Source of the DNA: Nemertoderma westbladi
Lineage: Eukaryota > Animalia > Xenacoelomorpha
Length of the DNA stretch: 64,000 nt
Assembly: GCA_032718475.1 (NCBI GenBank)
Contig: JAUCBJ010006812.1
Location: 17,511 to 81,510 of the forward strand
Direction of reading: 5' to 3'
A program made the translations under genes and the position numbers. Each line of letters opens with the position of its first letter. Position 1 is the stretch's first letter. Positions 37,060 through 63,580 of this stretch are shown here, piece after piece. The notes below the pieces were generated by a model. The model made no database searches, was not told where the DNA came from, and saw only the letters and a list, made by a program, of their open reading frames with translations.

Positions 37060-40000
37060 ATGTCCAATCTTACATTGCCACTGAAGCTTGTCGATTTCGT
37101 TAATCGGTCGCCTTCGCCATATCACGTTGTTCATTCCTGTAAAACTCTCCTTAATAAAGGTAAGATAAGTGCAGAAGACGGGATGATCCGAGTCCTGGAG
37201 TCCAAAAAAAATTATTGACGCACCGGTACACGGTACACACGTAGGCCTACCGTATATGATCTGGTATCGGTACCGGTAGCGGTAGGTAGGTACCACGGTG
37301 GAGACTGATCAGCCTATATTGGCCATTTGTTTTCCAGAAATTTTTTTAACGATACCGTATCTTATGCTCTACCGTGTCAAAGGTTAAACTACAAACACCA
37401 CTTTTTATATGGAAAACATACAGCCTATTTTATTTGGCTGACTTGGGCTACTTAATGATTTGTTGATTGGCAGATTGGGGTGTTTCGTTTTGTAGGTACT
37501 CACTGGTTTGTTAGTTCTGTAGTTAGGTTAAGGTTTGTTGGTCAGGCACAAATCATATGAAGGCCGTAATTGAACCTGAACCCTAAAGTCTTGAGGCAGT
37601 GTGAGTGGCATCTACAACTCCTTCGACATAAAACATTTCGTCAATAATTCGTTTAGGTTTGGTACAAATTTTTTGATGAAGGCCTACCAGTCTAAACATT
37701 CTCGTGGACCTAACAAGTTACTAGAGTTGCAGCCCTAATACTAAGTCATGTGGCTCTAATCACTAATCCTAGAAGTTACTTATCGAATATTTATTACAGT
37801 ATTAACCTCGCTACGTTCGGTAAATATTTTAATTTGATAAATAATTTATTTTAATAAGTTATTTTTATAACGAACTGTTACATATTTTATTCCAGCGGGT
37901 TTTAGGGAACTGAAAGAAGACGTGGCCTGGAAGATTGAACCCAAAGGCTTGTACTATATTACACGGAACAGTTCCACATTGATAGCTATAGCGGTTGGTG
38001 GCCAACATGAAGTAGGAGGTGGTAGGAACGGATTTAGTATAGTTGGAGCTCATACGGACAGCCCATGTCTTCGCGTAAGTTTCTACGTAATGGCAACCTG
38101 ACATACCGTTACCGTGTATGGTGGGAGTTAGTGTGGGACAATCCCTGCCTTACACGTAGCAGCTGAGATAGAGGAGACTTAGGGTTGCCCCCGGTGTTTC
38201 GTATTTCACACGTTCACTGATCACTTTTATCCATTCAATACATTTGTTTGGTCCCAAGCGAAAATTGAAAAGTTAACTTAGTTAGAAGTGACTAGGAATG
38301 GATATGTTAAATATTAAGGCTCCGTTTTGGATAACTGCGTATCAAGAGAAAGCACAGTGAAAAATATTTTCTCGAAAGTTAACTGTAGGCTTAAATGGTA
38401 AGTTTAAATCTTAAAGGGTAAGTGTCCCAACTACATAAAACAAAAATTCAACAGAGTACGCGATATACAGAGATTATCGCCTGTCCCAGAAGGTGATATA
38501 CGGTTATAAAACCTGAAGCAAATAAAAATATTTATTTTATAAAATTAAATTAAATTTATTTGCTGAAGTTTTTATAACCGTATATCACCTTCTGGGACAG
38601 GCGATAATCTGTTTATCATGTATATTCGAGCTTATTGCACTGATAAATTTTGTGAGCTACTTTTGTATCTTTCACGTTTTGGATAACGCAGACCCCACTG
38701 AAACAAACACATCTTTTGAAATCCCCCCCCAACCCCCTTCCCTCTCCAGTTGTCCGAACATTAAACAATATTGTAGAGAGAAGGGTTCAATTTCATTTAA
38801 TATTAAGTCAGAACAAGGAATTGTTACTTGTAGACCTAGATAACTAGTAATTATAATTGATGGGAATTGTTGCTCTTTTCGTGTTTTGACTGTCTTTGAT
38901 GTTTAGCAAGTGTTGCTGTCTGTGACCGGAAGCATCTGCAAATCTCTTTCTATTATTGGGTTTGCTGAAACTCATATTATGACGAATTTAGGCACTGCAG
39001 TAATAATACTGTACTGTAGTACAGCCAGTGTGTGAGCATTTTTTGTGATAAAACTCAAAATAAAAATTTTAATAAAAAAACTCAAAACTCAAAAAAAACA
39101 TAAAAAGAAAAAAAGAATAAACCCATAAAAACTCTAATCAATATTCATTTAAAAGTATTAAGAAATTTACTTAAAAATATTTCATTTTAATTTACTAGCT
39201 ATGTTAAAATAAAAAAACTATAGCTATCATTAAATTTTTTATTTTATTTATGTTCTAGAATAGTATATAATACTTTTATATTGTTCTGCAACTCCTCAAT
39301 GTTGCCATTTTATCAATGATATATGATTTATAAATGTAGTGCTATACGGAACTCTAACCGAAAAGATGATGAAAAATTTTCAATAAACGGTCACACAGGC
39401 TACTACAGTATAGTGCGGACTTCAATATTAGCTACAAAGTGATTTTAATCAGTTGGGAATGGATATAAATTATTTCAACATTGGGAAGAATGTGCAAAAA
39501 ATAACGTCTAAAACACAACAATAAATATGTAAGTTCTAGAATTTTGTATTAGGAGTTTTAATATAGTAGTTACATTGTTACATATATTAGTTACATTGTT
39601 ACATATAGTAGTTACATTGTTACATATAGTAGTTACATTGTTACATATAATAGTTACATTGTTACATATAGTAGTTACATTTTTACATATAGTAGTTACA
39701 TTGTTACATATAGTAGTTACATTGTTACATATAGTAGTTACATTGTTACATATAGTAGTTACATTGTTACATATAATAGTTACATTGTTACATATAATAG
39801 TTACATTGTTACATATAGTAGTTACATTGTTACATATATTAGTTACATTGTTACTTATAGTAGTTACTTTGTTACATATAGTAGTTACATTGTTACATAT
39901 AATAGTTACATTGTTACATATAGTAGTTACATTGTTACATATAGTAGTTACATTGTTACATATAGTAGTTACATTGTTACATATAGTAGTTACATTGTTA

Positions 40001-43000
40001 CATATAGTAGTTACATTGTTATATATAGTAGTTACATTGTTACATATAGTAGTTACATTGTTACATATAGTAGTTACATTGTTACATATAGTAGTTACAT
40101 TGTTACATATAGTAGTTACATTGTTACATATAGTAGTTACATTGTTACATATAGTAGTTACATTGTTACATATAGTAGTTACATTGTTACATATAGTAGT
40201 TACATTGTTACATATAGTAGTTACATTGTTACATATAGTAGTTACATTGTTACATATAGTAGTTACATTGTTACATATAGTAGTTACATTGTTACATATA
40301 GTAGTTACATTGTTACATATAGTAGTTACATTGTTACATATAGTAGTTACATTGTTACATATAGTAGTTACATTGTTACATATAGTAGTTACATTGTTAC
40401 ATATAGTAGTTACATTGTTACATATAGTAGTTACATTGTTACATATAGTAGTTACATTGTTACATATAGTAGTTACATTGTTACATATAGTAGTTACATT
40501 GTTACATATAGTAGTTACATTGTTACATATAGTAGTGACATTGTTACATATAGTAGTTACATTGTTACATATAGTAGTGACATTGTTACATATAGTAGTT
40601 ACATTGTTACATATAGTAGTTACATTGTTACATATAGTAGTTACATTGTTACATATAGTAGTTACATTGTTACATATAGTAGTTACATTGTTACATATAG
40701 TAGTTACATTGTTACATATAATAGTTACATTGTTACATATAGTAGTTACATTGTTACATATAGTAGTTACATTGTTACATATAGTAGTTACATTGTTACA
40801 TATAGTAGTTACATTGTTACATATAGTAGTTACATTGTTACTTATAGTAGTTACTTTGTTACATATAGTAGTTATATTTTTACATATAGTAGTTACATTG
40901 TCACATATAGTAGTTACATTGTTACATATAGTAGTTACATTGTTACATATAGTAGTTACATTGTTACATGTAGTAGTTACATTGTTACATATAGTAGTTA
41001 CATTGTTACATATAGTAGTTACATTGTTACATATAGTAGTTACATTGTTACATATAGTAGTTACATTGTTACATATAGTAGTTACATTGTTACATATAGT
41101 AGTTACATTGTTACATATAGTAGTTACATTGTTACATATAGTAGTTACATTGTTACATATAGTAGTTACATTGTTACATATAGTAGTTACATTGTTACAT
41201 ATAGTAGTTACATTGTTACATATAGTAGTTACATTGTTACATATAGTAGTTACATTGTTACATATAGTAGTTACATTGTTACATATAGTAGTTACATTGT
41301 TACTTATAGTAGTTACTTTGTTACATATAGTAGTTACATTGTTACATATAGTAGTTACATTGTTACATATAGTAGTTACATTGTTACATATAGTAGTTAC
41401 ATTGTTACATATAGTAGTTACATTGTTACATATAGTAGTTACATTGTTACATATAGTAGTTACATTGTTACATATAGTAGTTACATTGTTACATATAGTA
41501 GTTACATTGTTACATATAGTAGTTACATTGTTACATATAGTAGTTACATTGTTACATATAGTAGTTACATTGTTACATATAGTAGTTACATTGTTACATA
41601 TAGTAGTTACATTGTTACATATAGTAGTTACATTGTTACATATAGTAGTTACATTGTTACATATAGTAGTTACATTGTTACATATAATAGTTACATTGTT
41701 ACATATAGTAGTTACATTGTTACATATAGTAGTTACATTGTTACATATAGTAGTGACATTGTTACATATAGTAGTTACATTGTTACATATAGTAGTTACA
41801 TTGTTACATATAGTAGTTACATTGTTACATATAGTAGTTACATTGTTACATATAGTAGTTACATTGTTACATATAGTAGTTACATTGTTACATATAGTAG
41901 TTACATTGTTACATATAGTAGTTACATTGTTACATATAGTAGTTACATTGTTACATATAGTAGTTACATTGTTACTTATAGTAGTTACTTTGTTACATAT
42001 AGTAGTTACATTTTTACATATAGTAGTTACATTGTTACATATAGTAGTTACATTGTTACATATAGTAGTTACATTGTTACATATAGTAGTTACATTGTTA
42101 CATATAGTAGTTACATTGTTACATATAGTAGTTACATTGAGAATACATGATAAACACTCTTACAGTACCAATTTTAGTTACATTTTGTGGGAATGCCTTT
42201 GGTCTCCGGTGCTCAAATTCACTATCAATGTATTTATAAAACAACGGAGAACCACCCTGGAAAAAACCGCATCTCTATAGCTCCGTTGTACCAATCATTA
42301 GTAGATAACTTTTGGCCACTTTCAGAATAACGGGGGGGGGGGGGGGGGTGCCGCCTATACCCATCCCCCTTGGATACGTGCCTGTGTGTGTATGTGGCGG
42401 GTATTTAACAATCAGGCAATTAACTAAATCGAATAATAGCTGATCCTAAGGCATTTTAAAAATCCCGCCTTATTATATAAGTGAAAATATTGAGCACCGG
42501 TGCACAAACCCCAAAAAGATATATATGAGTCCTGTAGAGGTCACCGATACCGAATATGGCAACAGCTAATGTATTTGAGCACCGGTGCTAAACTTATAGC
42601 CTCCGCACTAAGGGCCAGCCAAGCCAAAATAGCTCCGCACATATAGGTTGCACAGGTCATGTTAACCGGTGCACAATCCGCAGTAAGAAGTTGACAGGGA
42701 GTAAAACCTGCAGCAGTAAAGTTAAAACACGAATTGTGCACCAGTGCTCAATCCGCAGCTAAGTAGCGTGCTCTAATAATAATGCCGTCCATCGCATATC
42801 TTCCGTAGTTGAAACCGATATCTAAGCGAGAGAGTCACGGATACATCCAGGTTGGTGTGCAGCTGTACGGAGGCGGTATATGGCACACGTGGTTCGATAG
42901 GAACCTAAAGGTTGCTGGCCGTGTCATCGTGAGGGACAACGGGAAACTGGTGCCCAGACTGGTGGATATCAATAGACCCATTCTCTGTATCCCTAGCTGC

Positions 43001-46000
43001 TGTATCCATCTCTACCGGGAACAGAATGACAAGTTCAGCCCCAATCTGGAGACCAACCTGTGAGTATAATGTGTATCTCGGTCTGGAGACCAACCTGTGA
43101 GTATAATGTGTATCTCGGTCTGGAAACCAACCTGTGAGTATAATGTGTAGCTTGGTCTGGAGACCAACCTGTGAGTATAATGTGTAGCTTGGTCTGGAGA
43201 CCAACCTGTGAGTATAATGTGTATCTCGGTCTGGAGACCAACCTGTGAGTATAATGAGTATAATGTGTATCTCGGTCTGGAGACCAACCTGTGAGTATAA
43301 TGTGTAGCTCGGTCTGGAGACCAACCTGTGAGTATAATGTGTATCTCGGTCTGGAGACCAACCTGTGAGTATAATGTGTATCTCGGTCTGGAGACCAACC
43401 TGTGAGTATAATGTGTATCTCGGTCTGGAGACCAACCTGTGAGTATAATGTGTAGCTTGGTCTGGAGACCAACCTGTGAGTATAATGTGTAGCTTGGTCT
43501 GGAGACCAACCTGTGAGTATAATGTGTATCTCGGTCTGGAGACCAACCTGTGAGTATAATGTGTATCTCGGTCTGGAGACCAACCTGTGAGTATAATGTG
43601 TAGCTTGGTCTGGAGACCAACCTGTGAGTATAATGTGTAGCTCGGTATGGAAACCAACCTGTGAGTATAATGTGTAGCTCGGTATGGAGACCAACCTGTG
43701 AGTATAATGTGTATCTCGGTCTGGAGACCAACCTGTGAGTATAATGTGTATCTCGGTCTGGAGACCAACGTGTGAGTATAATGTGTAGCTCGGTATGGAA
43801 ACCAACCTGTGAGTATAATGTGTAGCTCGGTATGGAGACCAACCTGTGAGTATAATGTGTATCTCGGTCTGGAGACCAACCTGTGAGTATAATGTGTATC
43901 TCGGTCTGGAGACCAACCTGTGAGTATAATGTGTAGCTCGGTCTGGAGACCAACCTGTGAGTATAATGTGTAGCTCAGTCTGGAGACCAACCTGTGAGTA
44001 TAATGTGTAGCTTGGTCTGGAGACCAACCTGTGAGTATAATGTGTAGCTTGGTCTGGAGACCAACCTGTGAGTATAATGTGTATCTCGGTCTGGAGACCA
44101 ACCTGTGAGTATAATGTGTATCTCGGTCTGGAGACCAACCTGTGAGTATAATGTGTATCTCGGTCTGGAGACCAACCTGTGAGTATAATGTGTATCTCGG
44201 TCTGGAGACCAACCCGTGAGTATAATGTGTATCTCGGTATGGAGTCCAACCTGTGAGTATAATGTGTATCTCGGTCTGGAGTCCAACCTGTGAGTATAAT
44301 GTGTATCTCAGTCTGGAGACCAACCTGTGAGTATAATGTGTATCTCAGTCTGGAGACCAACCTGTGAGTATAATGTGTATCTCGGTCTGGAGACCAACCT
44401 GTGAGTATAATGTGTATCTCGGTCTGGAGACCAACCTGTGAGTATAATGTGTAGCTCGGTCTGGAGACCAACCTGTGAGTATAATGTGTATCTCGGTCTG
44501 GAAACCAACCTGTGAGTATAATGTGTGGCTCGGTCTGGAGACCAACCTGTGAGTATAATGTGTATCTCGGTCTGGAGACCAACCTGTGAGTATAATGTGT
44601 ATCTCGGTCTGGAGATCAACCTGTGAGTATAATGTGTAGCTTGGTCTGGAGACCAACCTGTGAGTATAATGTGTATCTCGGTCTGGAAACCAACCTGTGA
44701 GTATAATGTGTGGCTCGGTCTGGAGACCAACCTGTGAGTATAATGTGTATCTCGGTCTGGAGACCAACCTGTGAGTATAATGTGTAGCTCGTTCTGGAGA
44801 CCAACCTGTGAGTATAATGTGTATCTCGGTCTGGAGACCAACCTGTGAGTATAATGTGTATCTCGGTCTGGAGACCAACCTGTGAGTATAATGTGTATCT
44901 CGGTCTGGAGACCAACCTGTGAGTATAATGTGTATCTCGGTCTGGAGACCAACCTGTGAGTATAATGTGTATCTCGGTCTGAAGACCAACCTGTGAGTAT
45001 AATGTGTATCTCGGTCTGGAGACCAACCTGTGAGTATAATGTGTAGCTCGGTCTGGAGACCAACCTGTGAGTATAATGTGTATCTCAGTCTGGAGACCAA
45101 CCTGTGAGTATAATGTGTAGCTCGGTCTGGAGACCAACCTGTGAGTATAATGTGTATCTCGGTCTGGAGACCAACCTGTGAGTATAATGTGTATCTCGGT
45201 CTGGAGACCAACCCGTGAGTATAATGTGTATCTCGGTATGGAGTCCAACCTGTGAGTATAATGTGTATCTCGGTCTGGAGTCCAACCTGTGAGTATAATG
45301 TGTATCTCAGTCTGGAGACCAACCTGTGAGTATAATGTGTATCTCAGTCTGGAGACCAACCTGTGAGTATAATGTGTATCTCGGTCTGGAGACCAACCTG
45401 TGAGTATAATGTGTATCTCGGTCTGGAGACCAACCTGTGAGTATAATGTGTATCTCGGTCTGGAGACCAACCTGTGAGTATAATGTGTATCTCGGTCTGG
45501 AGACCAACCTGTGAGTATAATGTGTATCTCGGTCTGGAGACCAACCTGTGAGTATAATGTGTATCTCGGTCTGGAGACCAACCTGTGAGTATAATGTGTA
45601 TCTCGGTCTGGAGACCAACCTGTGAGTATAATGTGTATCTCGGTCTGGAGACCAACCTGTGAGTATAATGTGTAGCTCGGTCTGGAGACCAACCTGTGAG
45701 TATAATGTGTATCTCAGTCTGGAGACCAACCTGTGAGTATAATGTGTAGCTCGGTCTGGAGACCAACCTGTGAGTATAATGTGTATCTCGGTCTGGAGAC
45801 CAACCTGTGAGTATAATGTGTATCTCGGTCTGGAGACCAACCTGTGAGTATAATGTGTATCTCGGTCTGGAGACCAACCTGTGAGTATAATGTGTATCTC
45901 GGTCTGGAGACCAACCTGTGAGTATAATGTGTATCTCGGTCTGGAGACCAACCTGTGAGTATAATGTGTATCTCGGTCTGGAGACCAACCTGTGAGTATA

Positions 46001-49000
46001 ATGTGTATCTCGGTCTGGAGACCAACCTGTGAGTATAATGTGTAGCTCGGTCTGGAGACCAACCTGTGAGTATAATGTGTATCTCAGTCTGGAGACCAAC
46101 CTGTGAGTATAATGTGTAGCTTGGTCTGGAGACCAACCTGTGAGTATAATGTGTATCTCGGTCTGGAGACCAACCTGTGAGTATAATGTGTATCTCAGTC
46201 TGGAGACCAACCTGTGAGTATAATGTGTATCTCGGTATGGAGTCCAACCTGTGAGTATAATGTGTAGCTCGGTCTGGAGACCAACCTGTGAGTATAATGT
46301 GTATCTCGGTATGGAGTCCAACCTGTGAGTATAAAATGTGTAGCTTGGTCTGGAGTCCAACCTGTGAGTATAATGTGTAGCTCGGTCTGGAGACCAACCT
46401 GTGAGTATAATGTGTATCTCGGTATGGAGTCCAACCTGTGAGTATAAAATGTGTAGCTTGGTCTGGAGACCAACCTGTGAGTATAATGTGTATCTCGGTC
46501 TGGAGACCAACCTGTGAGTATAATGTGTATCTCGGTCTGGAGACCAACCTGTGAGTATAATGTGTATCTCGGTCTGGAGACCAACCTGTGAGTATAATGT
46601 GTATCTCGGTCTGGAGACCAACCTGTGAGTATAATGTGTATCTCGGTATGGAGTCCAACCTGTGAGTATAAAATGTGTAGCTTGGTCTGGAGACCAACCT
46701 GTGAGTATAATGTGTATCTCGGTCTGGAGACCAACCTGTGAGTATAATGTGTATCTCGGTCTGGAGACCAACCTGTGAGTATAATGTGTAGCTTGGTCTG
46801 GAGACCAACCTGTGAGTATAATGTGTAGCTTGGTCTGGAGACCAACCTGTGAGTATAATGTGTATCTCGGTCTGGAGACCAACCTGTGAGTATAATGTGT
46901 ATCTCGGTCTGGAGACCAACCTGTGAGTATAATGTGTAGCTTGGTCTGGAGACCAACCTGTGAGTATAATGTGTATCTCGGTATGGAGACCAACCTGTGA
47001 GTATAATGTGTATCTCGGTCTGGAGACCAACCTGTGAGTATAATGTGTATCTCGGTCTGGAGACCAACGTGTGAGTATAATGTGTAGCTCGGTATGGAGA
47101 CCAACCTGTGAGTATAATGTGTATCTCGGTCTGGAGACCAACCTGTGAGTATAAAATGTGTAGCTTGGTCTGGAGACCAACCTGTGAGTATAATGTGTAT
47201 CTCGGTCTGGAGACCAACCTGTGAGTATAATGTGTATCTCGGTCTGGAGACCAACCTGTGAGTATAATGTGTATCTCGGTCTGGAGACCAACCTGTGAGT
47301 ATAATGTGTATCTCGGTATGGAGTCCAACCTGTGAGTATAAAATGTGTAGCTTGGTCTGGAGACCAACCTGTGAGTATAATGTGTATCTCGGTCTGGAGA
47401 CCAACCTGTGAGTATAATGTGTATCTCGGTCTGGAGACCAACCTGTGAGTATAATGTGTATCTCGGTCTGGAGACCAACCTGTGAGTATAATGTGTATCT
47501 CGGTCTGGAGACCAACCTGTGAGTATAATGTGTATCTCGGTCTGGAGACCAACCTGTGAGTATAATGTGTATCTCGGTCTGGAGACCAACCTGTGAGTAT
47601 AATGTGTAGCTCGGTCTGGAGACCAACCTGTGAGTATAATGTGTAGCTCGGTCTGGAGACCAACCTGTGAGTATAATGTGTAGCTTGGTCTGGAGACCAA
47701 CCTGTGAGTATAATGTGTGGCTCGGTCTGGAGACCAACCTGTGAGTATAATGTGTAGCTCGGTCTGGAGACCAACCTGTGAGTATAATGTGTATCTCGGT
47801 CTGGAGACCAACCTGTGAGTATAATGTGTAGCTTGGTCTGGAGACCAACCTGTGAGTATAATGTGTATCTCGGTCTGGAGACCAACCTGTGAGTATAATG
47901 TGTATCTCGGTCTGGAGACCAAGCTGTGAGTATAATGTGTATCTCGGTCTGGAGACCAACCTGTGAGTATAATGTGTAGCTTGGTAATATGGTAAATCTT
48001 TTAGTTCGACATAGCCGGGCCTACTGGCAGATTATTCATAGAATATTTAATTTAATTTTGATTTTTTGAGTGTTTTGTTCAGAACGCCCTTTTATTTAAA
48101 CTTATAATTAAACATGATTAAAAGTTATGCATATTTTTAATTAATGTCTGGCGAAGATTGGTGAATATGGTGTGGTAGGTAGGTAGTGGGTTTATTGAGA
48201 TACACTCCCCTTAATTAACTGATAAGATAGAATTATATAAATTAATTCCAAAGTCTGCTTTATTGAACATATCGCTATTTTTATTATTTATAATGGCAAA
48301 AGGGCATATTTGGTAAAATGATACTTATTCATACGGATTCCTGACAATGTCCTCCACTTTCAGGCGAAATATTAAAGCACGATGTGATTTTTGTGTAAAA
48401 ATATGGCGTTTTTTCAGCAATTTTTCGGATGTAAAAGGGCATTTTTGTAAAAAACATAAAGGAAATTTACTTTAAATTTTAAAGGGCATTTGATGGTGCC
48501 ATTGACACCAACATATCGATCATAGCATGTCAAGTACTATGAGATAAGAACTGACAAGAGTTTTCACCAGATACCAATTGTATTAAATTTGGTTGAATCA
48601 ATAAAAACTTATGGTTTTTAGTGTCTCCTGAACAATTTTTAATCGAGTGCCCTTTTGCCTGATAACCGACGATATACGGCAGTTGGGCGTTGGGCAAGGT
48701 ACTGGACTGGTTACCATTAGACTTGAGGACTGAGGAAGTAGTACTTAGGTCAGGTAAAGGTAGAGTATACTGTTCATTCATTCGTGTTAGACTATGGTGC
48801 AATCACGGTAAACTCAGAAACAAATTCACCCCAAATCACTCAAGCAAAAAAAGCGAGCACCTTGGAATAATAATTATATAAAACATGATGTTGAATGCTT
48901 TTCTTAAACGAATATTTATAAATTATAAAGGTTTAACTCACTCTGTGTTACTCCCTTGCAGGGTACCAATACTAGCAACAACCATTAAGGCTAAACTAAA

Positions 49001-52000
49001 CTCTGAAGACGACAGCCCCCCCACGATTGCTTCCAACAATTGCGCCTCCGCCAGACACCACACCCTGTTGGTTGATCTCGTTGCCAAGGAGTTGAAGGTG
49101 TCTGCTAACGACGTTGTGGATTTCGATTTGTATTTAGCTGATTGTCAACCCGGATGCATTGGCGGGGTGTTGGAGGAATTCGTACACGCGCCGCGATTGG
49201 ACAACCAGTTCAATGCTTTCTGTGGCGTCGAGGCTCTCATTGGTAGTTTGGATTCATTAGCGAACGATGCTAATATAAGAATCCTAACTATGTACGATAA
49301 TGAAGAGTGCGGCTCGCAATCTGCACAGGTTGGTTCCGTTTTACTCTCTATTTGATTGGCGTGTTATTAAATTCATTAAATAATTATCAGTATTCTTCCA
49401 CCAAATGAGTTATGTACCGAGCGATCGCAGCGAGGGATGTCTACAAAAATAAACAAGAGTCATAAACGCTGAAGTGCCATTTGAATACAATTGTACTTAA
49501 TTTTGTTACATTTTCTGAACTTATCGGGGTTCCTATAATATTTCAAGATATACCCCCATGCGGGGTAAAACAGGTATCGATAAAACTAAATAAAGAGTAT
49601 TTTTATAGTAAAATTAATTTTAGTAAATAAATAGATAAATGGGTCAATGCCAACCTTATTGATCAAGTTACGTAGGGGACAAAAAATATACAAAAATGTA
49701 AATCATTCGAGAATGAATGGTCGGTTGGCTTTGATAATTTGATTTCCGAATACACAATAATCGGTCCCCTCCTGCAGTGATACACTTAAAGCACAGTTTG
49801 TTATAGAAAAGGCTACATCGAATTTAAAAAAATCGTCACTTACGGGACAAATTTCAAATTTTGTTTTTGTGATTACGGGCTCATTTAGGCCATTAAAATT
49901 ACAATTCAGGTGTCAAACGATTAATATCCTTCCGGTACGGAGCCCGGGAAGGGACAGAAAAAAATATTTTCCTAACACGAGCCCTCAAGTTAGCTAACAC
50001 GAGCCCTCAAGTTAGCTAACACGAGCCCTCGTGCTAGCTAACACGAGCCCTCGTGCTAGCTAACACGAGCCCTCGTGCTAGCTAACATGAGCCCTCGTGT
50101 TAGCTAACACGAGGGCTCGTGTTAGAAAAATATTTTTTTTATGTCCCTTCCCGGGCTCCGTACTCCTGAGTAGAATTCCTGTGAACAAATAAGCGTAGCT
50201 TCGTTGTAAATTTGAGATATCAGAAATTAAAAAAAAATAGTTTTTTGTCACATACGTGACACTCGGTAAATGATTAATTTAATAGCATATAAATTGTCAA
50301 ATATGGGCCATTAACCCGATGTGTTAACACACAGTTAACATATTCTTCCATGTTGTTCAATTAGATTACCGATTTTTGATGGTTTAGCAGGTCATATGGA
50401 TAAATTGCGTGAGCGTGTCCAAAAAAGTGTCCCATACGCGAATAGAAAACGCGAACTCATAAAGATTTAGATCACCATATCCATTTCTCTGATAGTTTTG
50501 CCATGTATGGGTTGTATCAGGGAGACTGCTACGTAAACATTTATTTGGCCAGGTTGAAAAAAACTGCCATGTCCCATTGTGTTGGGGGCAGAAGTTAATC
50601 ATGGTCAAAACAATTAATACTGACATTTAATTAATGGTTGGGGGCTTACCAGTCACAGATAAACTGTAATCTGTTCCTTCCCCTTACTTGACAACAGACC
50701 AAATTTCTTTATTACCAAATTAACTATTTGTGGAAAAGGTTTTGAGATTGGGACATTAGTTGAGAGTGGGATGTAAGTTGGGAATGGAACAGGAGTTGGC
50801 AGTGGGAAGGACGATAAACAGGACTTAAATTCTAGTACTGAGCAGTTGTTTGAAGAATCTCATGATTTTTTTTAATTGGAAAATAAATGTCATAATTTAT
50901 AATAATCGTTTCCATGTAATTTCCTTCCTATACCATATCAATATGTCCCAAACATGACATCAAAAAACTGTCTATTTACATTTTCAAATTAATTTTTTGA
51001 TATAAAATAACGATTTCAGTTTAACATATGCAACATTTTGTGTATCACATTGTTATTAACAGGAAAAAACATTTAGCCCCACTTTTCACGGCGGCAAAGT
51101 TTCCCAGAAAGTGAAACTTTGTGTTGTCACTCAATGAAAACTTTATTTTTAGTGAAAGAATTTTTAAATTTTTTCTCACCAGAATATGGACATAAAATAA
51201 GAAAAAAATATTTATAGATTTCCCATACGTGACAAAAAAATTTTCTCAATTTTAGCATTTTGGAATGTTTCTCTCAATAACGGCCAATAAATTTTTGGGG
51301 CCCTTTCTGGTTTCATATGCAGAAATTATCGCTCTTTCTAAACACCACTATGGCAAATTCTCAAAGTTAATTTCAAAATTCAACAAATTTCAAAAATCAC
51401 CACGGGACATTGGTCAATATGGTTGGCATTGACCCAAATAAGTAATTCGTAAATAATAGTTAGGGTGGGGGGGGGGGGGGGTCGATTCTGCTGCGGTTGC
51501 GATGATTGCCGGAGACGGATAGATTAGGCACGATAGTGCGTGGTAGCCGAGGGTACACGATTGGCCACAGAATGTGCTCGTACATTCCGGTGTGAGTGAG
51601 CGGTAGGGGGTCCTGTTTACACACAACTTACAATGGAAACCGAGTGCAGTGAGCCGGGTAACTATGTGGCGGTGGGCTCGGTACTGTTGGATTACTTCAC
51701 AGTTCAATGTTTCAGTCTGTGTTTCAGTCAATGTTACAGTCTGGTGAAAATTCACCAACTAATTTTAGTGGTAGACTTGATGATGCCGATTGGTGTAGTC
51801 CAAGCATCCGATGCGTTTTATAAGAAAGGGAAGACTTTAATTTTGACGATTTTCATGCCAGTTTCAGTTGAAATTAGAGGAAGTTTTGTAAGAGAGACCA
51901 TTGATTGTTGCATAACGCCTTAATTTTCTTCGATTTTTTGTTTTTACTGAAAGAAAGGGAGTTTATCGGGGTTCTATGCGTTAATTATTAATCACTTTAA

Positions 52001-55000
52001 TATTGAAATGCTTTAAGAATATTGATATTAATATTCACAGTTTTAAACTTTTAAACAATTATTTTTTAAGGAATTTTTAGTTGGTTGCATCTTTCCGATG
52101 TCACCATGAAATTGCAGATTATTAACACTTAAACTGGTAGAAACACATATTTGTGTTTTAAGTGTTAAGCTTTCAGAAAGTAATTATTGTTTACATTATT
52201 TTGATGACAATTACTTTGAAGTTATTTACCCCAGATTCGGTCAGACAGTTAGGGGTTCATCTGATATCACTTTTTTTTAATATCCGGTGCGCCTCCTAGT
52301 GATAGTATTAGTTTTGGGATCTGATATTATTTATTATGAGATTGGCGTCAGTGTTTACTGTTTACCTCACAATTGGACCCAATCGGAGAATCTTATTGGA
52401 CTTATTCAGCCAGAGGATGCCGATATTTACTATGAATAATTCAACTTATAAATAAATGTATCGATGAAGACTTATTGTCATAAAATCTATATGAGCTAGA
52501 CACCCAATTGCGTTGGAGCGCTTACTGAGTGAACTGGGCGGTACGCCGTTGCTAAGATACCGACTAAGACACCTACCCCTCGGACACCCACTACAGTTCC
52601 CATATTTCCTTACATCTCCAGGGGGCACGGTCTGCCTTTACTGAGAACGTTTTACGACGACTTATCCAACTGGATGCGACCCCACCCGTAGTCAATGGAT
52701 ACGAGTTAACTATAGCTCGATCTTTCCTAGTTAGCGCGGACCAAGCACACGCCTTACATCCTAATTACCCAGAGAAACACGAAGACAAACACAAACCGAC
52801 CTTCCACGCGGGTCCCGTGATTAAATCGCATTGCAACCAGTGTTACACAACGACCGATCTAACGTCGACTATTCTACGTGAGGTTGCTGCCAAGGTTAAC
52901 GTACCAATGCAGGTAAATATAACAGAGATATAATGTTGCTTTACTGCTCTATAGGAGTTACTTGATAATAGAAAATAATCCATCGGCAAGCAAATCCTGT
53001 TATTATTAATCGATGTATCTAACACTAGCAGACTGTACCGTTCAGGCAACTGCAAACTTTAAATTCGCTAAAACTTCCGACTTCGTTGGTTAAATTTTAC
53101 AATATTAGGTCCAAACGTTTCTGATTGGATGTTCTATTATATCCTATTAGGCTGATAACACAAAAAACTACCCAAAGGTTCACTTGTTCACATTGACGGA
53201 TTGTCACTTAACTATAGGAATTTTTTTATTATTTTTTTCATTTTTATAACAATATTATAATTAACATTAATTAGTAAGTATTGATTCTATTATTATCCTC
53301 ATACATTTATTTGCGCTCACTCAATACGTTCGGTCGTGTATTGAACCATTCAGAGCATCATTAAGTGCTACTTTCATACAATAATGTTAAATAGTTACAT
53401 ATTTTACTTTGCCCTGCTTGTTTTACCTTTCCAGGAATATTGTGTGAAGAATCATTCTCCTTGTGGTAGTACCATCGGCCCCATGCAGTCTGCTTTACTG
53501 GGTTTGCGGACCATTGATATCGGTTGCGCTCAGTTTGCAATGCATTCTATACGGGAGATGTGTTCAACCACCAGCGTCGAACAAAACATCACATTGCTTA
53601 AGGTAAGACCGTCAAGTATCACAAATAATAGGAAGAGTAGAGTAATGCTATATATATAAGGTGTAATTTGCTACTCTCTGTTCACTTTTTGTTTTTTGCC
53701 CGGAAAGAAAGACTTAACACATGTTGTATGAGAAAGTAGATCTTCGTCATACACCAGAACAAACAACAGCTCAACAAAATTAAATTAAATTCCACCAAGA
53801 TGTAAGCCGGTTCGATAGGATATCAATATTCTATATTACCTACGATATACAAAATTTGATACAAAATTAATTAATACACATGATATAGACATTTACAGTT
53901 GAAACATATAAACTTTGCAATATATCGAGAACGAAGCAAATCTGATTTCACATTCGGAATCAACATGATGAACTGGTTCCATTGTTTAGGCATGGGATGT
54001 GGTGCCACTGGATAGATCGATATATTTATTGACCCAAGATATTCGCGGTAAAGACACATAGTACATAAACGGGTGTAAACGTAAAACGGACAGAAGTTTG
54101 CGGGCAGGTTTACGGACAGGTTTGCGGACAAGTTTGCGGACAGGTTTGCGGACAGGTTTGGGGACAGGTTTACGGGCAGGTTTGGGGACAGGTTTACGGA
54201 CAGGTTTGCGGACAGATGTTTGCGGGCAGGTTTACGGGCAGGTTTACGGACAGGTTTGCGGACAGATGTTTGCGGGCAGGTTTACGGGCAGGTTTACGGA
54301 CAGGTTTGCGGACAGGTTTGGGGACATGTTTACGGACAGGTTTGCGGACAGATGTTTGCGGGCAGGTTTACGGGCAGGTTTACGGACAGGTTTGCGGACA
54401 GATGTTTGCGGGCAGGTTTACGGGCAGGTTTACGGACAGGTTTGCAGGTTTACGGACAGGTTTGCGGACAGATGTTTGCGGGCAGGTTTACGGGCAGGTT
54501 TACGGACAGGTTTGCGGACAGATGTTTGCGGGCAGGTTTACGGCAGGTTTACGGACAGGTTTGCGGACAGGTTTGGGGACATGTTTACGGACAGGTTTGC
54601 GGACAGATGTTTGCGGGCAGGTTTACGGGCAGGTTTACGGACAGGTTTGCGGACAGATGTTTGCGGGCAGGTTTACGGGCAGGTTTACGGACAGGTTTGC
54701 GGACAGGTTTGGGGACAGGTTTACGGACAGGTTTGCGGACAGATGTTTGCGGGCAGGTTTACGGGCAGGTTTACGGACAGGTTTGCGGACATGTTTACGG
54801 AAGGTTTGCGGACAGATTTGCGGACAGGTTTGCGGACAGATGTTTGCGGACAGGTTTGCGGACACGTTTACGGACAGGTTTGCGGACAGGTTTACGGACA
54901 GGTTTGCGGTCAGGTTTGCGGATAGGTTTGCGGACAGGTTTGCGGACAGATGTTTGCGGGCAGGTTTGCGGACAGATTTGCGGACAGGTTTGCGAACAGA

Positions 55001-55339
55001 TGTTTGCGGACAGGTTTGCGGACACGTTTACGGACAGATTTGCGGACAGATGTTTGCGGGCAGGTTTGCGGACAGGTTTGTGGGCACGTTTACGGACAGA
55101 TTTGCGGACAGATGTTTGCTGGCAGGTTTGCGGACGGAGACAGAGATTTGCGGACTTATTATTTAGTATCTTGACATAATTATTAATTAATACTTACTAA
55201 CTCAACTCAAGGTTATTATTATTATTATCTTTCAATTTACTGAATTACTTTCCACTAGTTTTCTCATATTTTTCAGGGATTTTTCGAACACTATCCTGGG
55301 ATATATTCGACATTTCAGATGGAATATCACTCGGATTAA
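37060..55339 (+). CDS. DNPEP: Aspartyl aminopeptidase (M18), isoform A, 472 aa; exons 37060-37159, 37896-38074, 42809-43059, 48962-49328, 52622-52912, 53435-53602, 55277-55339
   Basis: [90 protein letters not shown]. All introns are GT-AG and phase-consistent. AATAAA at 55395. Confidence 0.95.
38471..38610. repeat. Near-perfect 140-bp palindrome in DNPEP intron 2
   Basis: agattatcgcctgtcccagaaggtgatatacggttataaaa ... ttttataaccgtatatcaccttctgggacaggcgataatct. Confidence 0.9.
39561..42138. repeat. 21-bp minisatellite (~122 units) in DNPEP intron 2
   Basis: Unit atatagtagttacattgttac. Confidence 0.97.
43045..47985 (+). repeat. 37-bp minisatellite (~133 units) made of the DNPEP exon-3 end plus its 5' splice site
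   Basis: Unit TCTGGAGACCAACCT|GTGAGTATAATGTGTATCTCGG; the first unit is the real exon 3/intron 3 junction (43059|43060). Confidence 0.97.
49641..51435. mobile_element. Non-autonomous DNA transposon (Sola-like) in DNPEP intron 4
   Basis: TIR gggtcaatgccaacc(t/a)tattga(t/c)caa at both ends, with a 4-bp AAAT TSD (AWWT type). Confidence 0.75.
49938..50160. mobile_element. MITE with TA TSD, CGG...CCG termini and internal 21-bp repeats, nested in 49641-51435
   Basis: TA|cggagcccgggaagggaca ... tgtcccttcccgggctccg|TA; internal gctaacacgagccctc repeats. Confidence 0.88.
54095..55155. repeat. 12-14-bp minisatellite (ggacaggtttgc variants) in DNPEP intron 6a
   Basis: Tandem gg(a/g)caggttt(a/g)c with interspersed gatgtttgc variants. 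Confidence 0.95.
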
Positions 55340-56181
55340 TGGCTCCAACTCCATTATCGAGATTAGACTGTTTGATTAGGTTGTGGGTTTGTCAAATAAA
55401 CATTTATCATTATAGTTTAGACAAAAAGTGCTATTTCCCGATACTTTATTCATATCCAATAACATTAGTTGATTGATTTCGTTGTTGGCTAAATATATAC
55501 ACATGGAATAATTTGATATCTTTAATCATTTTTGCTAGAAATTTGTGCTGTTTGTATTTTTGTCAATAGGTTCTGGTTGTATTTTGGTATTGTATTTCTG
55601 TTCAATATTATATGGAATATTTACAAATTTACTTAATTAACTTAATTAAATTTACAAATTTTGAAAATTTACATATTTCAACCATTCACTTTCTAGTTTG
55701 TTTATATATCTCCCTATGAGGAAGATGTGCTTTATTTCCTTGCCATTGTGAAATTGTATTAAATTTTTCTATATAACAGATTTATTGTTATAATTCTCCA
55801 TAAACTTCACCACCGCACACTGCACAACATAGGCTTATATTTATTTAGAAACAAGTATTATTGTGCATGCCTACCGATCCGGTTTAAAGGATTTACATTT
55901 GAACCTTTTGCCTTGCATGAATAATGACTAACTCACTGTAGCATTAACTGATAAAACCGAGCATTACCCTTCAGAAGCAATGTATCCTACTCGCGTGGAA
56001 ATGATCGACCACCATATACTACATAAGATCTCATATTGCCCTATTGTACCTGTTAGTAGTACATAATTAGTAACCCCGATTTTGGTTTTTGAATTTCACG
56101 TAAGCACATTTTAATAAGGATTTAAAATAGGAATTAAACAGTTTTAAGCGAGATAAGAAAGAAGCCCACCACGTAGCTGAA

Positions 56182-56226
<45 letters not shown>
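56182..56226. repeat. (GGC)n trinucleotide microsatellite
   Basis: About 15 uninterrupted units. Confidence 0.9.
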
Positions 56227-56227
<1 letters not shown>

Positions 56228-56337
56228 ATCGGCGGGTTTATTGGAGGGTAATTTTATTTCAATGAATATTAATTTATTTTATTTTTGCGTCTGATTTCAT
56301 GTGCGTGTTGGGAAATAAATGGTAATAAACTAATTGT

Positions 56338-58343
56338 TCCACAGAGCCCCACTAGATACAGCTAAAATATGGACACATATTAGCTGTATCTAGTGGGGCA
56401 CTGTGGACACATATTAGCTGTATCTAGTGGGGCAACTACTGTGGACCCATATTAGCTGCATCTAGTGGGGCACTGTGAACCCATATTAGCTGTATCTAGT
56501 GGTGCTCTGTGGACCCATATTAGCTGTATCTAGTGGGGCTCTGTGGACCCATATTAGCTGTATCTAGTGGGGCAACTACTGTGGACCCATATTAGCTGCA
56601 TCTAGTGGGGCACTGTGAACCCATATTAGCTGTATCTAGTGGTGCTCTGTGGACCCATATTAGCTGTATCTAGTGGGGCAACTACTGTGGACCCATATTA
56701 GCTGCATCTAGTGGGGCACTGTGAACCCATATTAGCTGTATCTAGTGGGGCACTGTGGACCCATATTAGCTGTATCTAGTGGGGAAATACTGTGAACCCA
56801 TATTAGCTGTATCTAGTGGGGCTCTGTGGACCCATATTAGCTATATCTAGTGGGGCACTGTGGACCCATATTAGCTGTATCTAGTGGGGAAATACTGTGA
56901 ACCCATATTAGCATTATCTAGTGGGGCTCTGTGGACCCATATTAGCTGTATCTAGTGGGGCTCTGTGGACCCATATTAGCTGAATCTAGTGAGGCACTAC
57001 TGTGGACCCATATTAGCTGTATCTAGTGGGGCACTGTGGACACATATTAGCTGTATCTAGTGGGGCAACTACTGTGGACCCATATTAGCTGTATCTAGTG
57101 GGGCACTGTGAACCCATATTAGCTGTATCTAGTGGGGCTCTGTGGTCCCATATTAGCTGTATCTAGTGGAGCTCTGTGGACCCATATTAGCTGTATCTAG
57201 TGGGGCAACTTCTGTGGACACATATTAGCTGTATCTAGTGGGGCTCTGTGGTCCCATATTAGCTGTATCTAGTGGGACACTACTGTGGACCCATATTAGC
57301 TGTATCTAGTGGGGCACTACTGTGGACACATATTAGCTGTATCTAGTGGGGCACTGTGGACAGCTGGACACATATTAGCTGTATCTAGTGGGGCACTGTG
57401 GACACATATTAGCTGTATCTAGTGGGGCAACTACTGTGGACCCATATTAGCTGTATCTAGTGGGGCACTGTGAACCCATATTAGCTGTATCTAGTGGGGC
57501 TCTGTGGTCCCATATTAGCTGTATCTAGTGGAGCTCTGTGGACCCATATTAGCTGTATCTAGTGGGGCAACTTCTGTGGACACATATTAGCTGTATCTAG
57601 TGGGGCTCTGTGGTCCCATATTAGCTGTATCTAGTGGGACACTACTGTGGACCCATATTAGCTGTATCTAGTGGGGCACTACTGTGGACACATATTAGCT
57701 GTATCTAGTGGGGCACTGTGGACAGCTGGACCCATATTAGCTGTATCTAGTGGGGCTCTGTGGACCCATATTAGCTGTATCTAGTGGGGAAATACTGTGA
57801 ACCCATATTAGCTGTATCTAGTGGGGCTCTGTAGACCCATATTAGCTGTATCTAGTGGGGCACTGTGGACCCATATTAGCTGTATCTAGTGGGGCTCTGT
57901 GGACCCATATTAGCTGTATCTAGTGGGGCACTGTGGATACATATTAGCCTTATCTAGTGGGACACTACTGTGAACCCATATTATCTGTATCTAGTGGGGC
58001 TCTGTGGACCCATATTAGCTGAATCTAGTGAGGCACTACTGTGGACCCATATTAGCTGTATCTAGTGAGGCACTACTGTGGACCCATATTAGCTGTATCT
58101 AGTGGGGCTCCGGGGACCCATATTAGCTGTATCTAGTGAGGAAATACTGTGAGCCTGATACTAATAAACTAATACTGTGATCTAGTGGCGCTCTGTGAAA
58201 CCATATTAGCTGTATCTAGTGGGGCTCTGTGAAACCATATTATCTGTATCTAGTGGGGCTCTGTGGACCCATATTAGCTGTATCTAGTGGGGCTCTGTGA
58301 AACCATATTATCTGTATCTAGTGGGGCTTTGTGAAACCATATT
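56338..58343. repeat. 38-41-bp minisatellite immediately upstream of the exon 5b acceptor; first unit inverted
   Basis: Unit catattagctgtatctagtggggctctgtggacc; 56338-56370 is its reverse complement. Confidence 0.95.
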
Positions 58344-58364
58344 TCTATTATGTTTGCGTTGCAG

Positions 58365-59401
58365 GGAGGAATGTCGGCCTTTACGGATAATGTGTTGCGA
58401 CGATTCATCCAATCAGATGCGGCCTCAAAGGTTTTCAATGGATACGAATTATCAATAGCAAGATCACTTCTAATGAGTTGCGACCAATCACATGCCTTGC
58501 ATCCTAATTACGCTAATAAGCACGAAGGCAAGCACACACCGACAATGCATTCTGGCCCTATAATTAAAACAAACTGCAATCAACGTTATGCGTCTACCGA
58601 CCTAACATCTGCTATTGTTCGCGAGGTAGCTAATAGGTCTAAAGTGCCCATACAGGTAAGTCGATTATTATTGATATATTACAATATCTTAGCGTCTATT
58701 TTATTTAACATTTTGTTACACAACTAATTACGATGTTTCACATTCATTTAGGAATTTGTTAGACGAAGCGAACATCAACCCGCACTAGGTGCCACCTCGT
58801 TCGGTAATAAGATAGCGTCCATCCTGGGTATCCGAACAGTCGATGTTGGGGGTGCCCAGTTAGCAATGCATTCCGTAAGAGAAATGGCCCATGTCGATGC
58901 TATAACATACATGGTTCGGTTAATGATTGTAAGTTATATATTAGATGCTATTAACCCCCCTCGGTTCACTATAACTGACAGAGTTGGGGAGTGGGGAGGG
59001 GAGGTGGATTAAATTGGTTAGCATAACGTCTACCACGACTGTAACCTGATCCTTTGCCCTAAATATTCTTACCGCATTAATACAAACAGGTACACACAGG
59101 TACAGTACCACGTAGCCCCCCCCCCCCCCCCCCCCCTCCCCCCCTACTGTTGATCTTGATATTTTAGCAGTAACCTCTCACTATAACCTCTTAAATCTCA
59201 ATATAAGCTCTCAAAATCAGTTCGCTACAGTTTTTTTTTTAATTATTATTTTTATTTTAACTTCCGTGATATTAATTATATATTATTAGATATTCTTCAT
59301 CCTATTTTATTTTGTTTCAGGGATTATACGAACAATATCCCGAGATTTTCAAATCATTTCAGATGGAATATCAAATTGAATTAGACTTACGAATTGAATG
59401 A
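58365..59401 (+). CDS. DNPEP: Second DNPEP C-terminal cassette (exons 5b-7b: 58365-58655, 58752-58928, 59321-59401); putative alternative isoform B (481 aa with shared exons 1-4)
   Basis: Same exon phases as 5a-7a, intact frames and canonical splice sites; SCDQSHALHPNY, GPIIK, AMHSVREM, GLYEQYP..FQMEY. No duplicate of exons 1-4 is seen upstream. Confidence 0.85.
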
Positions 59402-59697
59402 TGTAACAACATTCAAATTATATAAAATATCACGTCCGTTTAATGTTGGTATGATCCAATAATAATAATAACAAATAATATTAAATAATATAATCGAATC
59501 GACTTTTCAGATATTAAACCACCACTACCACTTAAACCACTCCCCACTACCCACACGCTGCGAAGATATATTTCCATTGGAATCCTTTCCGGAGGAAAAT
59601 CAAAGCAAAAATAACAAGTGCACCACAGCAATAATACACTGTTACCCATTGAAATTATTTGTAAAGTGACATGCCGACTTTAGGGCGTTTGTATACA

Positions 59698-62950: not shown

Positions 62951-63580
62951 ATGGGGGAAACGAATGTTGAGAAACCAAAACGGGACTTCACCCACCTCCT
63001 CTCTGGAGGCGGTCGCAAGCAGGCGATCCGGAATTTGTTGATGAGAAAAGCACAGGAGGAGCTCGAATTAGAGAAGCAGAGGCAGGCGCATGAGAAGCAG
63101 ACGTTTATTGATCAATACATAGATAGATACGTCGACATGGAAGATGTTGACGGTATGGGTAAAGCTGAAGTTGTCGAATTGGTACAACAAATGAACGACA
63201 TCTACAGAAAGTTGGAGGGAGATAGATGGGAGCTGGAAAGAACTGTAAAGAACAACCTCCTCCAAATAGAAGACCTTAAAGGGAAAGCCACGGAAGGTAG
63301 AGGGAAGTTTATGAAGCCGCCTCTTAAGAAAGTGGTTACCAAGAAGGAGAACAGAGCAAAGGCGTTAGAGAGAGCGAGGAAGAGGGAACAGATGTTACAG
63401 AATGTTTCATTGACACTGAAAGTTACAGAAAAGAAGAAGTCTGTAGAAGAGCCCAAAGAAGAAAAGCCTGATTGGCAACAGCAGTCGTTAAAGAAGAAGG
63501 ACGATAAAGAGGTGATTAAAGATAAAGGAGAAGAAGATGTTGTAGAAGAGGAGGAAGAAGAGGAGGAGGATGAAGAGTAG
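62951..63580 (+). CDS. TNNI: Troponin I (209 aa, intronless CDS, acidic C-terminal tail)
   Basis: RKQAIRNLLMRKAQEELELEKQR (TnC-binding helix), KLEGDRWELE..IEDLK (coiled coil), RGKFMKPPLKKV (inhibitory peptide), LKVTEKK..KPDW; candidate 5'UTR acceptor ttatttcag at ~62912. Confidence 0.9.
   Translation: MGETNVEKPKRDFTHLLSGGGRKQAIRNLLMRKAQEELELEKQRQAHEKQTFIDQYIDRYVDMEDVDGMGKAEVVELVQQMNDIYRKLEGDRWELERTVKNNLLQIEDLKGKATEGRGKFMKPPLKKVVTKKENRAKALERARKREQMLQNVSLTLKVTEKKKSVEEPKEEKPDWQQQSLKKKDDKEVIKDKGEEDVVEEEEEEEEDEE

What the first reader, a model, noticed from the sequence alone, without database searches (positions are those of the whole stretch)
52622..59401. DNPEP with two alternative three-exon catalytic C-terminal cassettes (one gene, two peptidase specificities?)
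Seen: exons 5-7 occur twice with identical phases, intact frames and splice sites, but exons 1-4 occur once. Exon 5a and 5b differ at 33 of 97 aa (~66% identity), so the duplication is old and both copies look maintained. Both keep the metal-ligand Asp (S.DQ.H) and His (MHS.RE) and the GP.IK lysine. A has NQCY where B keeps the canonical NQRY. B replaces the conserved V(R/K)[10 protein letters not shown] loop with VRRSEHQPALGATSFGN (+3 aa). Known (recalled from human DNPEP structure): these segments line the substrate pocket, and M18 enzymes assemble as dodecamers. Inference: alternative splicing/polyadenylation swaps half of the active site, giving isoenzymes with different specificity and possibly mixed dodecamers. 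I do not know this arrangement for DNPEP elsewhere.
Basis: partly seen in the sequence, partly recalled or inferred. Interest (0 to 1): 0.82.

Follow-up and report, generated by a model that had tools for sequence, protein, structure and literature searches.

The report
Peptidase gene with two catalytic endings
An animal gene for aspartyl aminopeptidase has one front half followed by two old, intact copies of its last three exons, so splicing likely makes two enzymes from one gene, the second with a rewritten loop that is predicted to reshape the substrate pocket.

Summary
Observation confirmed. DNPEP exons 1-4 occur once in the window. Exons 5-7 occur twice (A 52622-55339, B 58365-59401), with GT-AG sites, phase-0 joins and open frames of 472 and 481 aa. 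The copies are sisters and old (dS about 2), and were under purifying selection (dN/dS about 0.16). The shared half supplies three zinc ligands and the catalytic Glu; each cassette supplies the other two ligands and the P1 pocket. Both keep His349, Lys374 and Tyr381, so a switch away from acidic substrates is not supported. B departs from consensus at 7 of 9 conserved positions of the pocket-wall loop, against 6 of 37 elsewhere. B also evolves faster and has lower GC3. Best reading: alternative 3' cassettes, with A the conventional enzyme and B a retuned or weakened minor form. The exon 4 to 5b join is inferred, with no transcript or relative in hand, and a recently orphaned paralog remains possible. 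The architecture is known (fly pipe, CG42235, PGRP-LC; human GNAO1, MASP1). My searches found no such case for DNPEP. What is unusual is that the swap cuts through one bimetal site of a 12-subunit enzyme.

The parts
37060..37159 (+). DNPEP exon 1 (shared; start codon)
   Evidence: present once in the window
37896..38074 (+). DNPEP exon 2 (shared; zinc ligand equivalent to human His94)
42809..43059 (+). DNPEP exon 3 (shared; dimerisation domain with the swapped-loop His, human His170)
48962..49328 (+). DNPEP exon 4 (shared; human Asp264, Glu301, Glu302); its donor is the only one of 8 with a pyrimidine at +3
52622..52912 (+). Exon 5a (cassette A; Asp346, His349, Lys374, Tyr381 kept; Arg380 to Cys)
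53435..53602 (+). Exon 6a (cassette A; canonical pocket-wall loop; His440)
55277..55339 (+). Exon 7a coding part with stop
55395..55400 (+). AATAAA, candidate poly(A) signal of cassette A
   Evidence: use not shown
56376..58337 (.). 34-38 nt tandem array (about 55 copies) between the cassettes, ending in the 5b acceptor; one continuous unit family
58365..58655 (+). Exon 5b (cassette B; Asp346, His349, Lys374, Arg380, Tyr381 kept; in-frame ATG at codon 3)
58752..58928 (+). Exon 6b (cassette B; rewritten pocket-wall loop, +3 aa; His440 kept)
59321..59401 (+). Exon 7b coding part with stop (6 aa longer than 7a)
59480..59518 (+). Two ATTAAA hexamers (59480, 59513), candidate poly(A) signals of cassette B; no AATAAA within 550 nt
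   Evidence: use not shown

Best explanation
One aspartyl-aminopeptidase gene carries two tandem copies of its last three exons, and it likely picks one by alternative splicing and polyadenylation, which would give a conventional enzyme (A) and a minor form (B) predicted to keep both zinc ions and its acidic preference but with a reshaped pocket wall. Shown: the two intact cassettes, their phases, the selection on them and where the changes fall. Inferred: exon 4 splices either to 5a, with cleavage after 7a, or past cassette A to 5b. In-frame hybrids (5a-6a-7b, 5a-6b-7b) are also possible. Because the dimerisation domain and the swapped His loop are shared, A and B subunits would probably co-assemble into the dodecamer where they are co-expressed.
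For: Exons 1-4 occur once and exons 5-7 twice, with no N and no room for a second front half: about 1 kb of unique DNA plus one array. dN 0.33-0.34 and dS 2.0-2.2 by three estimates; pN/pS 0.39 (bootstrap 0.30-0.49); exon 5 alone dN 0.22, dS 1.55. A neutrally drifting B would keep its frame and 5 splice dinucleotides in only 16% of simulations at 0.05 substitutions per site, 3% at 0.1 and 0.7% at 0.15, so B was under selection for most of its history. A and B are sisters (SH-aLRT 96, quick tree). All five metal ligands, Glu301 and His170 are present in both forms (against PMC3472314). B's departures are concentrated: 7 of 9 conserved loop columns versus 6 of 37 elsewhere (Fisher p 0.0009; scan-corrected p 0.02). 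By comparison 71 of 73 distinct homologues depart at 2 or fewer of those 9 columns. Docking work places Pro412/Cys413 on the S1 wall and Gly414/Thr415 in S1' (PMC7225938 passages). Each cassette has a poly(A)-like hexamer. The same layout is spliced in fly pipe, CG42235 and PGRP-LC and in human GNAO1.
Against: The exon 4 to 5b join and B's activity are untested. B changes faster than A (30-38 versus 9-14 unique residues against four outgroups, p 0.0003-0.02) and has lower GC3 (0.36 versus 0.51 in the shared exons, p 0.001; versus A 0.45, p 0.08). This also fits relaxed selection. B's changes include positions 97-99% conserved (Gly414, Thr416, Pro419 in the gapless register), which could cripple rather than retune the enzyme. 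B has only ATTAAA. No donor-to-acceptor RNA pairing above shuffles was found. dS is near saturation (LWL85 13.6, YN00 failed), and a pairwise dN/dS cannot show that B is still selected today.
Confidence: 0.5

Rival explanations
1. The same alternative 3' cassettes, but B is a catalytically weak or dead subunit that tempers or scaffolds the dodecamer rather than a retuned enzyme.
For: B alters near-invariant loop positions: Gly414 and Thr416 are each 99% conserved, and none of 76 homologues has B's residue at either. That loop walls the P1 pocket (the assignment of this stretch to the loop is inferred) and lines S1'.
Against: All metal ligands and His349/Lys374/Arg380/Tyr381 are kept. In the gapless register most swaps are conservative (C to G, G to A, S to T, T to S, I to F). 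B keeps the consensus at 31 of 37 conserved columns outside the loop.
Confidence: 0.2
2. B is the leftover 3' half of a whole-gene tandem duplicate whose exons 1-4 were lost recently; it is now silent and starting to decay.
For: B's faster rate, lower GC3 and weaker poly(A) signal. Pairwise dN/dS reflects the past only.
Against: B is fully intact, which limits any dead period to roughly under 0.1 substitutions per site out of about 1 on its branch (the split of dS is assumed, indels not modelled). No trace of a second exon 1-4 is found.
Confidence: 0.18
3. An assembly or haplotype artefact: a separate full B gene exists and its front half was dropped at the 2-kb array.
For: A tandem array lies exactly between 7a and 5b. 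No whole genome was available to look for a second front half.
Against: No N in the window. Rare unit variants occur on both sides of the array, the array fades into the 5b acceptor, and it has no copy elsewhere in the window. A simple collapse of a repeat-A-repeat-B layout does not give repeat-A-B (inference).
Confidence: 0.07
4. B is transcribed from its own promoter between the cassettes and translated from the ATG at codon 3 of exon 5b as a roughly 180-aa fragment.
For: In-frame ATG in 5b. A (GCG)15 run and three donor-like sites lie in 56100-56330.
Against: The fragment would lack His94, Asp264, Glu301 and Glu302, yet B conserves the ligands that only make sense with them. An unrelated homologue (P0017) has Met at the same position.
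Confidence: 0.05

Closest known systems
Drosophila pipe, CG42235 and PGRP-LC 3' variable regions (PMC6191721, passages; PMC3291829, passages)
   Same: Shared 5' exons followed by tandem multi-exon 3' cassettes chosen by splicing. pipe has 10 cassettes of 2-4 exons and gives 10 sulfotransferase isoforms, only one of them needed for axis formation.
   Different: Those are proven by RNA, and competing RNA pairings were shown for them; none was found here. Here there are two cassettes and the cut falls inside one catalytic domain.
Human GNAO1 and the other C-terminal tandem-exon substitutions (PMC8373072, passages and supplement search)
   Same: The last coding exons are swapped for a duplicated set by alternative poly(A) use; 77 of 236 human events are C-terminal.
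   Different: DNPEP is not in that catalogue (0 hits in the main text and in the one supplement held).
MASP1/3 gene (PMC3701661, passages; listed as a C-terminal event)
   Same: One gene, two proteases that differ only in their C-terminal catalytic part.
   Different: MASP swaps a whole self-contained serine-protease domain. Here the two-zinc site is built from a shared half (three ligands and the base) and a swapped half (two ligands and the pocket).
Human DNPEP, M18 family, PDB 4DYO (PMC3472314, parts 1-3 of 4 read)
   Same: All five metal ligands, Glu301, His170, His349, Lys374 and Tyr381 are kept in both forms.
   Different: A has Cys for Arg380 (0 of 76 homologues). B has a rewritten, 3-residue-longer pocket-wall loop.
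PhTET2-PhTET3 hetero-dodecamers, M42 family (PMC4220976, abstract and discussion)
   Same: Precedent for mixed tetrahedral aminopeptidase particles combining active sites of different specificity (reassembled in vitro).
   Different: Archaeal M42 enzymes, two distinct proteins rather than splice forms. Mixing is only hypothesised here.

Membership tests
M18 aspartyl aminopeptidase (DNPEP) | Match to Pfam PF02127 | tested here: met
   Exons 3, 4, 5a, 5b, 6a and 6b all above the 24-bit cut-off; 6b weakest at 39.6 bits
M18 aspartyl aminopeptidase (DNPEP) | H.D.E.D.H metal ligands (His94, Asp264, Glu302, Asp346, His440) and base Glu301 | tested here: met
   Alignments to 4DYO/7U5H; chain numbering is paper numbering plus 10 (inferred from the matches); both forms complete
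M18 aspartyl aminopeptidase (DNPEP) | Swapped-loop His170 | tested here: met
   Kept in shared exon 3
M18 aspartyl aminopeptidase (DNPEP) | Lys374 as mark of acidic P1 preference, with His349 and Tyr381 | tested here: met
   Kept in 5a and 5b (criterion)
M18 aspartyl aminopeptidase (DNPEP) | Conserved pocket-wall loop (human 408-419) | tested here: not met
   A departs at 2 of 9 conserved columns, B at 7 of 9. Not met for B only; a conserved rather than strictly defining feature
M18 aspartyl aminopeptidase (DNPEP) | Dodecamer and Asp/Glu aminopeptidase activity | not testable with these tools
   Needs recombinant protein
Alternative 3' tandem multi-exon cassettes (pipe/CG42235/GNAO1 type) | Single 5' part, homologous tandem 3' exon sets in the same phase, each with its own stop | tested here: met
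Alternative 3' tandem multi-exon cassettes (pipe/CG42235/GNAO1 type) | A poly(A) site after each cassette | tested here: inconclusive
   AATAAA 55 nt after A; only ATTAAA after B, in AT-rich DNA where it may be chance
Alternative 3' tandem multi-exon cassettes (pipe/CG42235/GNAO1 type) | Transcripts joining the last shared exon to each cassette | not testable with these tools
Alternative 3' tandem multi-exon cassettes (pipe/CG42235/GNAO1 type) | Layout conserved in related species | tested here: inconclusive
   No close relative retrieved: best identity 55-57% to the exon 5 copies; no locus from metagenome contigs
Alternative 3' tandem multi-exon cassettes (pipe/CG42235/GNAO1 type) | Competing docking-site/selector RNA pairing (present in some members only) | tested here: not met
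   Best duplex between the 300 nt after exon 4 and the DNA before 5a or 5b was reached by 9-35 of 60 shuffles in four tests; the paper says other 3' clusters lack it

The most novel reading that the evidence does not exclude
Splicing assembles the two-zinc active site of a self-compartmentalised peptidase from a constant half and a choice of two, or with hybrids up to four, pocket halves. The cell then builds mixed 12-subunit particles whose substrate range is set by splice ratio: a one-gene equivalent of the mixed TET2/TET3 particle, and a natural test of whether the pocket-wall loop can override Lys374.
Probability: 0.25. Interest if true: 0.75.

Novelty: new variant of a known kind. Interest (0 to 1): 0.5.

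Why it matters
If B is spliced and active, this is a natural experiment on M18 specificity: the same metal site, dimer interface and Lys374, but a pocket-wall loop unlike that of 71 of 73 homologues examined. It would also extend 3' cassette splicing from swapping whole domains to swapping half of one catalytic centre in an obligate oligomer. If B is silent, it is an ordinary partial duplicate caught early in decay.

Tried and rejected
No whole genome is held, so a second front half elsewhere could not be sought. Sequencing-run search with 58344-59500: no RNA holder listed; this says nothing about expression, and no reads could be laid. Protein searches with exons 5b and 5a among longer proteins only and with 5b among cluster representatives found no close relative. 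The intronless troponin and FTSJ3 proteins are not in the collection, and FTSJ3's best hits are spread over many animal phyla with none close, so the lineage was not placed. Metagenome scan: 177 pattern matches, none confirmed. Earlier findings by relatives, words, sequence and nearby place: nothing on this gene. Folds of exon 6b and 6a alone were both low-confidence (mean pLDDT 56.9 and 57.7) and uninformative, so no fold search was run; the full-length forms were not folded. RNA pairing was not above shuffles. A 9-nt motif shared before 5a and 5b looked like a selector, but its core CATAT lies before 6 of 11 acceptors in the window, so I rejected it as cassette-specific. The careful tree did not finish and the quick tree was used; 89 of 165 fetched M18 proteins did not span exons 5-6 and were left out. 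The bovine DNPEP structure paper is not held. Literature searches for this arrangement: 54 papers, 20 listed; the one naming aspartyl aminopeptidase lists it in a table of spliced Echinococcus genes without, in the passage seen, any duplicated cassette; 0; 1, unrelated by title; 0. Most subscription papers are not searchable, and figures and most supplements were not seen.
Full report
Observation. The window holds a complete DNPEP (M18 aspartyl aminopeptidase) gene on the + strand. Exons 1-4 (37060-49328) encode 299 codons. Two sets of exons 5-7 follow: A (52622-52912, 53435-53602, 55277-55339) and B (58365-58655, 58752-58928, 59321-59401). All introns are GT-AG and all cassette joins are phase 0. 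Joined by coordinates the forms give 472 and 481 aa without internal stops. Identity is 64 of 97 for exon 5, 20 of 56 for exon 6 and 10 of 20 for exon 7.

Age and selection. Over 173 aligned codons dN is 0.33-0.34 and dS 2.0-2.2 (own NG86, Biopython NG86 and ML). LWL85 gave dS 13.6 and YN00 failed, so dS is near saturation. The uncorrected pN/pS is 0.39 (bootstrap 0.30-0.49); exon 5 alone gives dN 0.22 and dS 1.55. Introns have lost all real similarity. In a quick tree of 78 rows (76 of 165 fetched M18 proteins spanned the region; 172 of 334 columns kept) A and B are sisters at SH-aLRT 96, with branches 0.19 and 0.54. The duplication is therefore specific to this lineage as far as these homologues show. 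In simulation, neutral drift leaves B's frame and splice dinucleotides intact in 16%, 3% and 0.7% of runs at 0.05, 0.1 and 0.15 substitutions per site (no indels modelled). B has thus been selected for most of its history, though a very recent death cannot be excluded. Against: B changes about two to three times faster than A in four outgroup tests (p 0.0003-0.02), and its GC3 is 0.36 against 0.51 in the shared exons (p 0.001) and 0.45 in A (p 0.08).

What is swapped. I read parts 1-3 of 4 of the human structure paper (PMC3472314). By alignment to 4DYO and 7U5H, the shared exons give His94, His170, Asp264, Glu301 and Glu302. Each cassette gives Asp346, His440, His349, Lys374 and Tyr381. The paper says the P1 pocket is made by strand b15 and the b16-a12 and b17-a13 loops, the last walling the pocket and limiting its size, and it proposes Lys374 as the mark of acidic preference. 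Both copies keep Lys374. My assignment of b17-a13 to the start of exon 6 is inferred from element order and from passages of PMC7225938 that place Pro412/Cys413 at S1 and Gly414/Thr415 at S1'; I could not see the figure. Among 73 distinct homologues 46 columns are at least 80% conserved; A keeps 38 and B 33. B departs at 7 of 9 such columns in this loop and 6 of 37 elsewhere (Fisher p 0.0009; scan-corrected p 0.02). Of the homologues, 71 depart at two or fewer loop columns, one at three and one at seven; the last is a plant model that looks locally mis-framed (my inference). The homologues were gathered with exon 5 queries and few are named animals. The loop register is ambiguous: gapless, Gly414 becomes Ala and Thr416 Ser; with scattered single insertions Gly414 is kept. 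A has its own oddity, Arg380 to Cys, seen in 0 of 76 homologues. Folds of exon 6 alone were too poor to help.

Splicing signals. A is followed by AATAAA at 55395 and B by ATTAAA at 59480 and 59513. B's acceptors and donors look like the constitutive ones. The exon 4 donor is the only one of eight with a pyrimidine at +3, but it matches the U1 consensus at 7 of 11 positions like several others (consensus recalled), so this is weak. Hybrids 5a-6a-7b and 5a-6b-7b are in frame. No docking-type RNA pairing exceeded shuffles. Between 7a and 5b lie 1 kb of unique DNA and one 2-kb array whose rare variants occur on both sides and which fades into the 5b acceptor. This argues against, but does not exclude, a mis-join.

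Mechanism. Most likely exon 4 splices to 5a with cleavage after 7a, or the transcript runs on and exon 4 splices to 5b; both steps are inferred. A would be the ordinary Asp/Glu aminopeptidase. B would keep both zinc ions and the acidic-residue contacts but have a different pocket wall, changing size selectivity, P1' preference or turnover (0.5), or leaving it weak and regulatory (0.2). Orphaned paralog 0.18, assembly artefact 0.07, own promoter 0.05. The dimerisation domain and His170 loop are shared, so mixed dodecamers are plausible where both forms are made; in vitro mixed TET2/TET3 particles are a precedent (PMC4220976, abstract and discussion).

Comparison. Tandem multi-exon 3' cassettes are known in fly pipe, CG42235 and PGRP-LC (PMC6191721 passages; PMC3291829 passages) and human GNAO1; 77 of 236 human tandem-exon substitutions are C-terminal, and DNPEP is not among them (PMC8373072 passages and supplement search). 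MASP1/3 makes two proteases by swapping the catalytic domain (PMC3701661 passages). Passages of PMC5638241 and PMC4195677 added nothing on this layout. Searches found no report of it for DNPEP, within a library that lacks most subscription papers.

Organism. The window is from an animal (troponin-family and FTSJ3 genes) with no close relative among the proteins retrieved. Unchecked earlier notes on other pieces of this genome suggest a xenacoelomorph worm and report other duplicated-exon cassettes. I treat these as leads only.

Verdict. A real, old, selected 3' cassette duplication; a new variant of a known kind of gene architecture. Its special feature is a cut through one bimetal active site. 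Splicing and function remain to be shown. Interest 0.5.

Noticed in passing
window 43045-47985: DNPEP intron 3 opens with a 37-nt array (133 copies; 128 carry the exact exon 3 end plus donor). Reading past the first donor hits a stop at once. It matches the amphioxus 'mirage' type (PMC3087553 section 16).
   Followed up: partly
window 56376-58337: The array before exon 5b repeats the CATAT motif of that acceptor about 55 times. CATAT lies within 45 nt of 6 of 11 acceptors against 20 of 301 background YAG windows (p 3e-5, motif chosen after looking), possibly a branch-point-like signal of this lineage.
   Followed up: partly
window 62951-63580 (+): Intronless troponin-family ORF, 209 aa, nearest Atlas clusters troponin I.
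   Followed up: partly
window 10563-12686 (-): Intronless FTSJ3/Spb1 ORF of 708 aa, shorter than most animal hits (about 750-910 aa).
   Followed up: partly
window about 26276-32823 (+): KXD1-like gene (Pfam KxDL) whose likely third exon runs in frame into a 21-nt array (121 copies) coding a 7-residue repeat; the first stop comes after about 454 aa.
   Followed up: partly
window 56182-56330: (GCG)15 run followed by donor-like sites in the AT-rich spacer between the cassettes; could be a small exon or promoter piece.
   Followed up: no
window about 49930-50170: A 22-nt array (7 copies) flanked, by eye, by long inverted repeats in intron 4; looks like a small non-autonomous element.
   Followed up: no
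window 42809-53602: Form A is rich in unusual cysteines near active-site motifs (next to His170, after Glu302, at Arg380).
   Followed up: no
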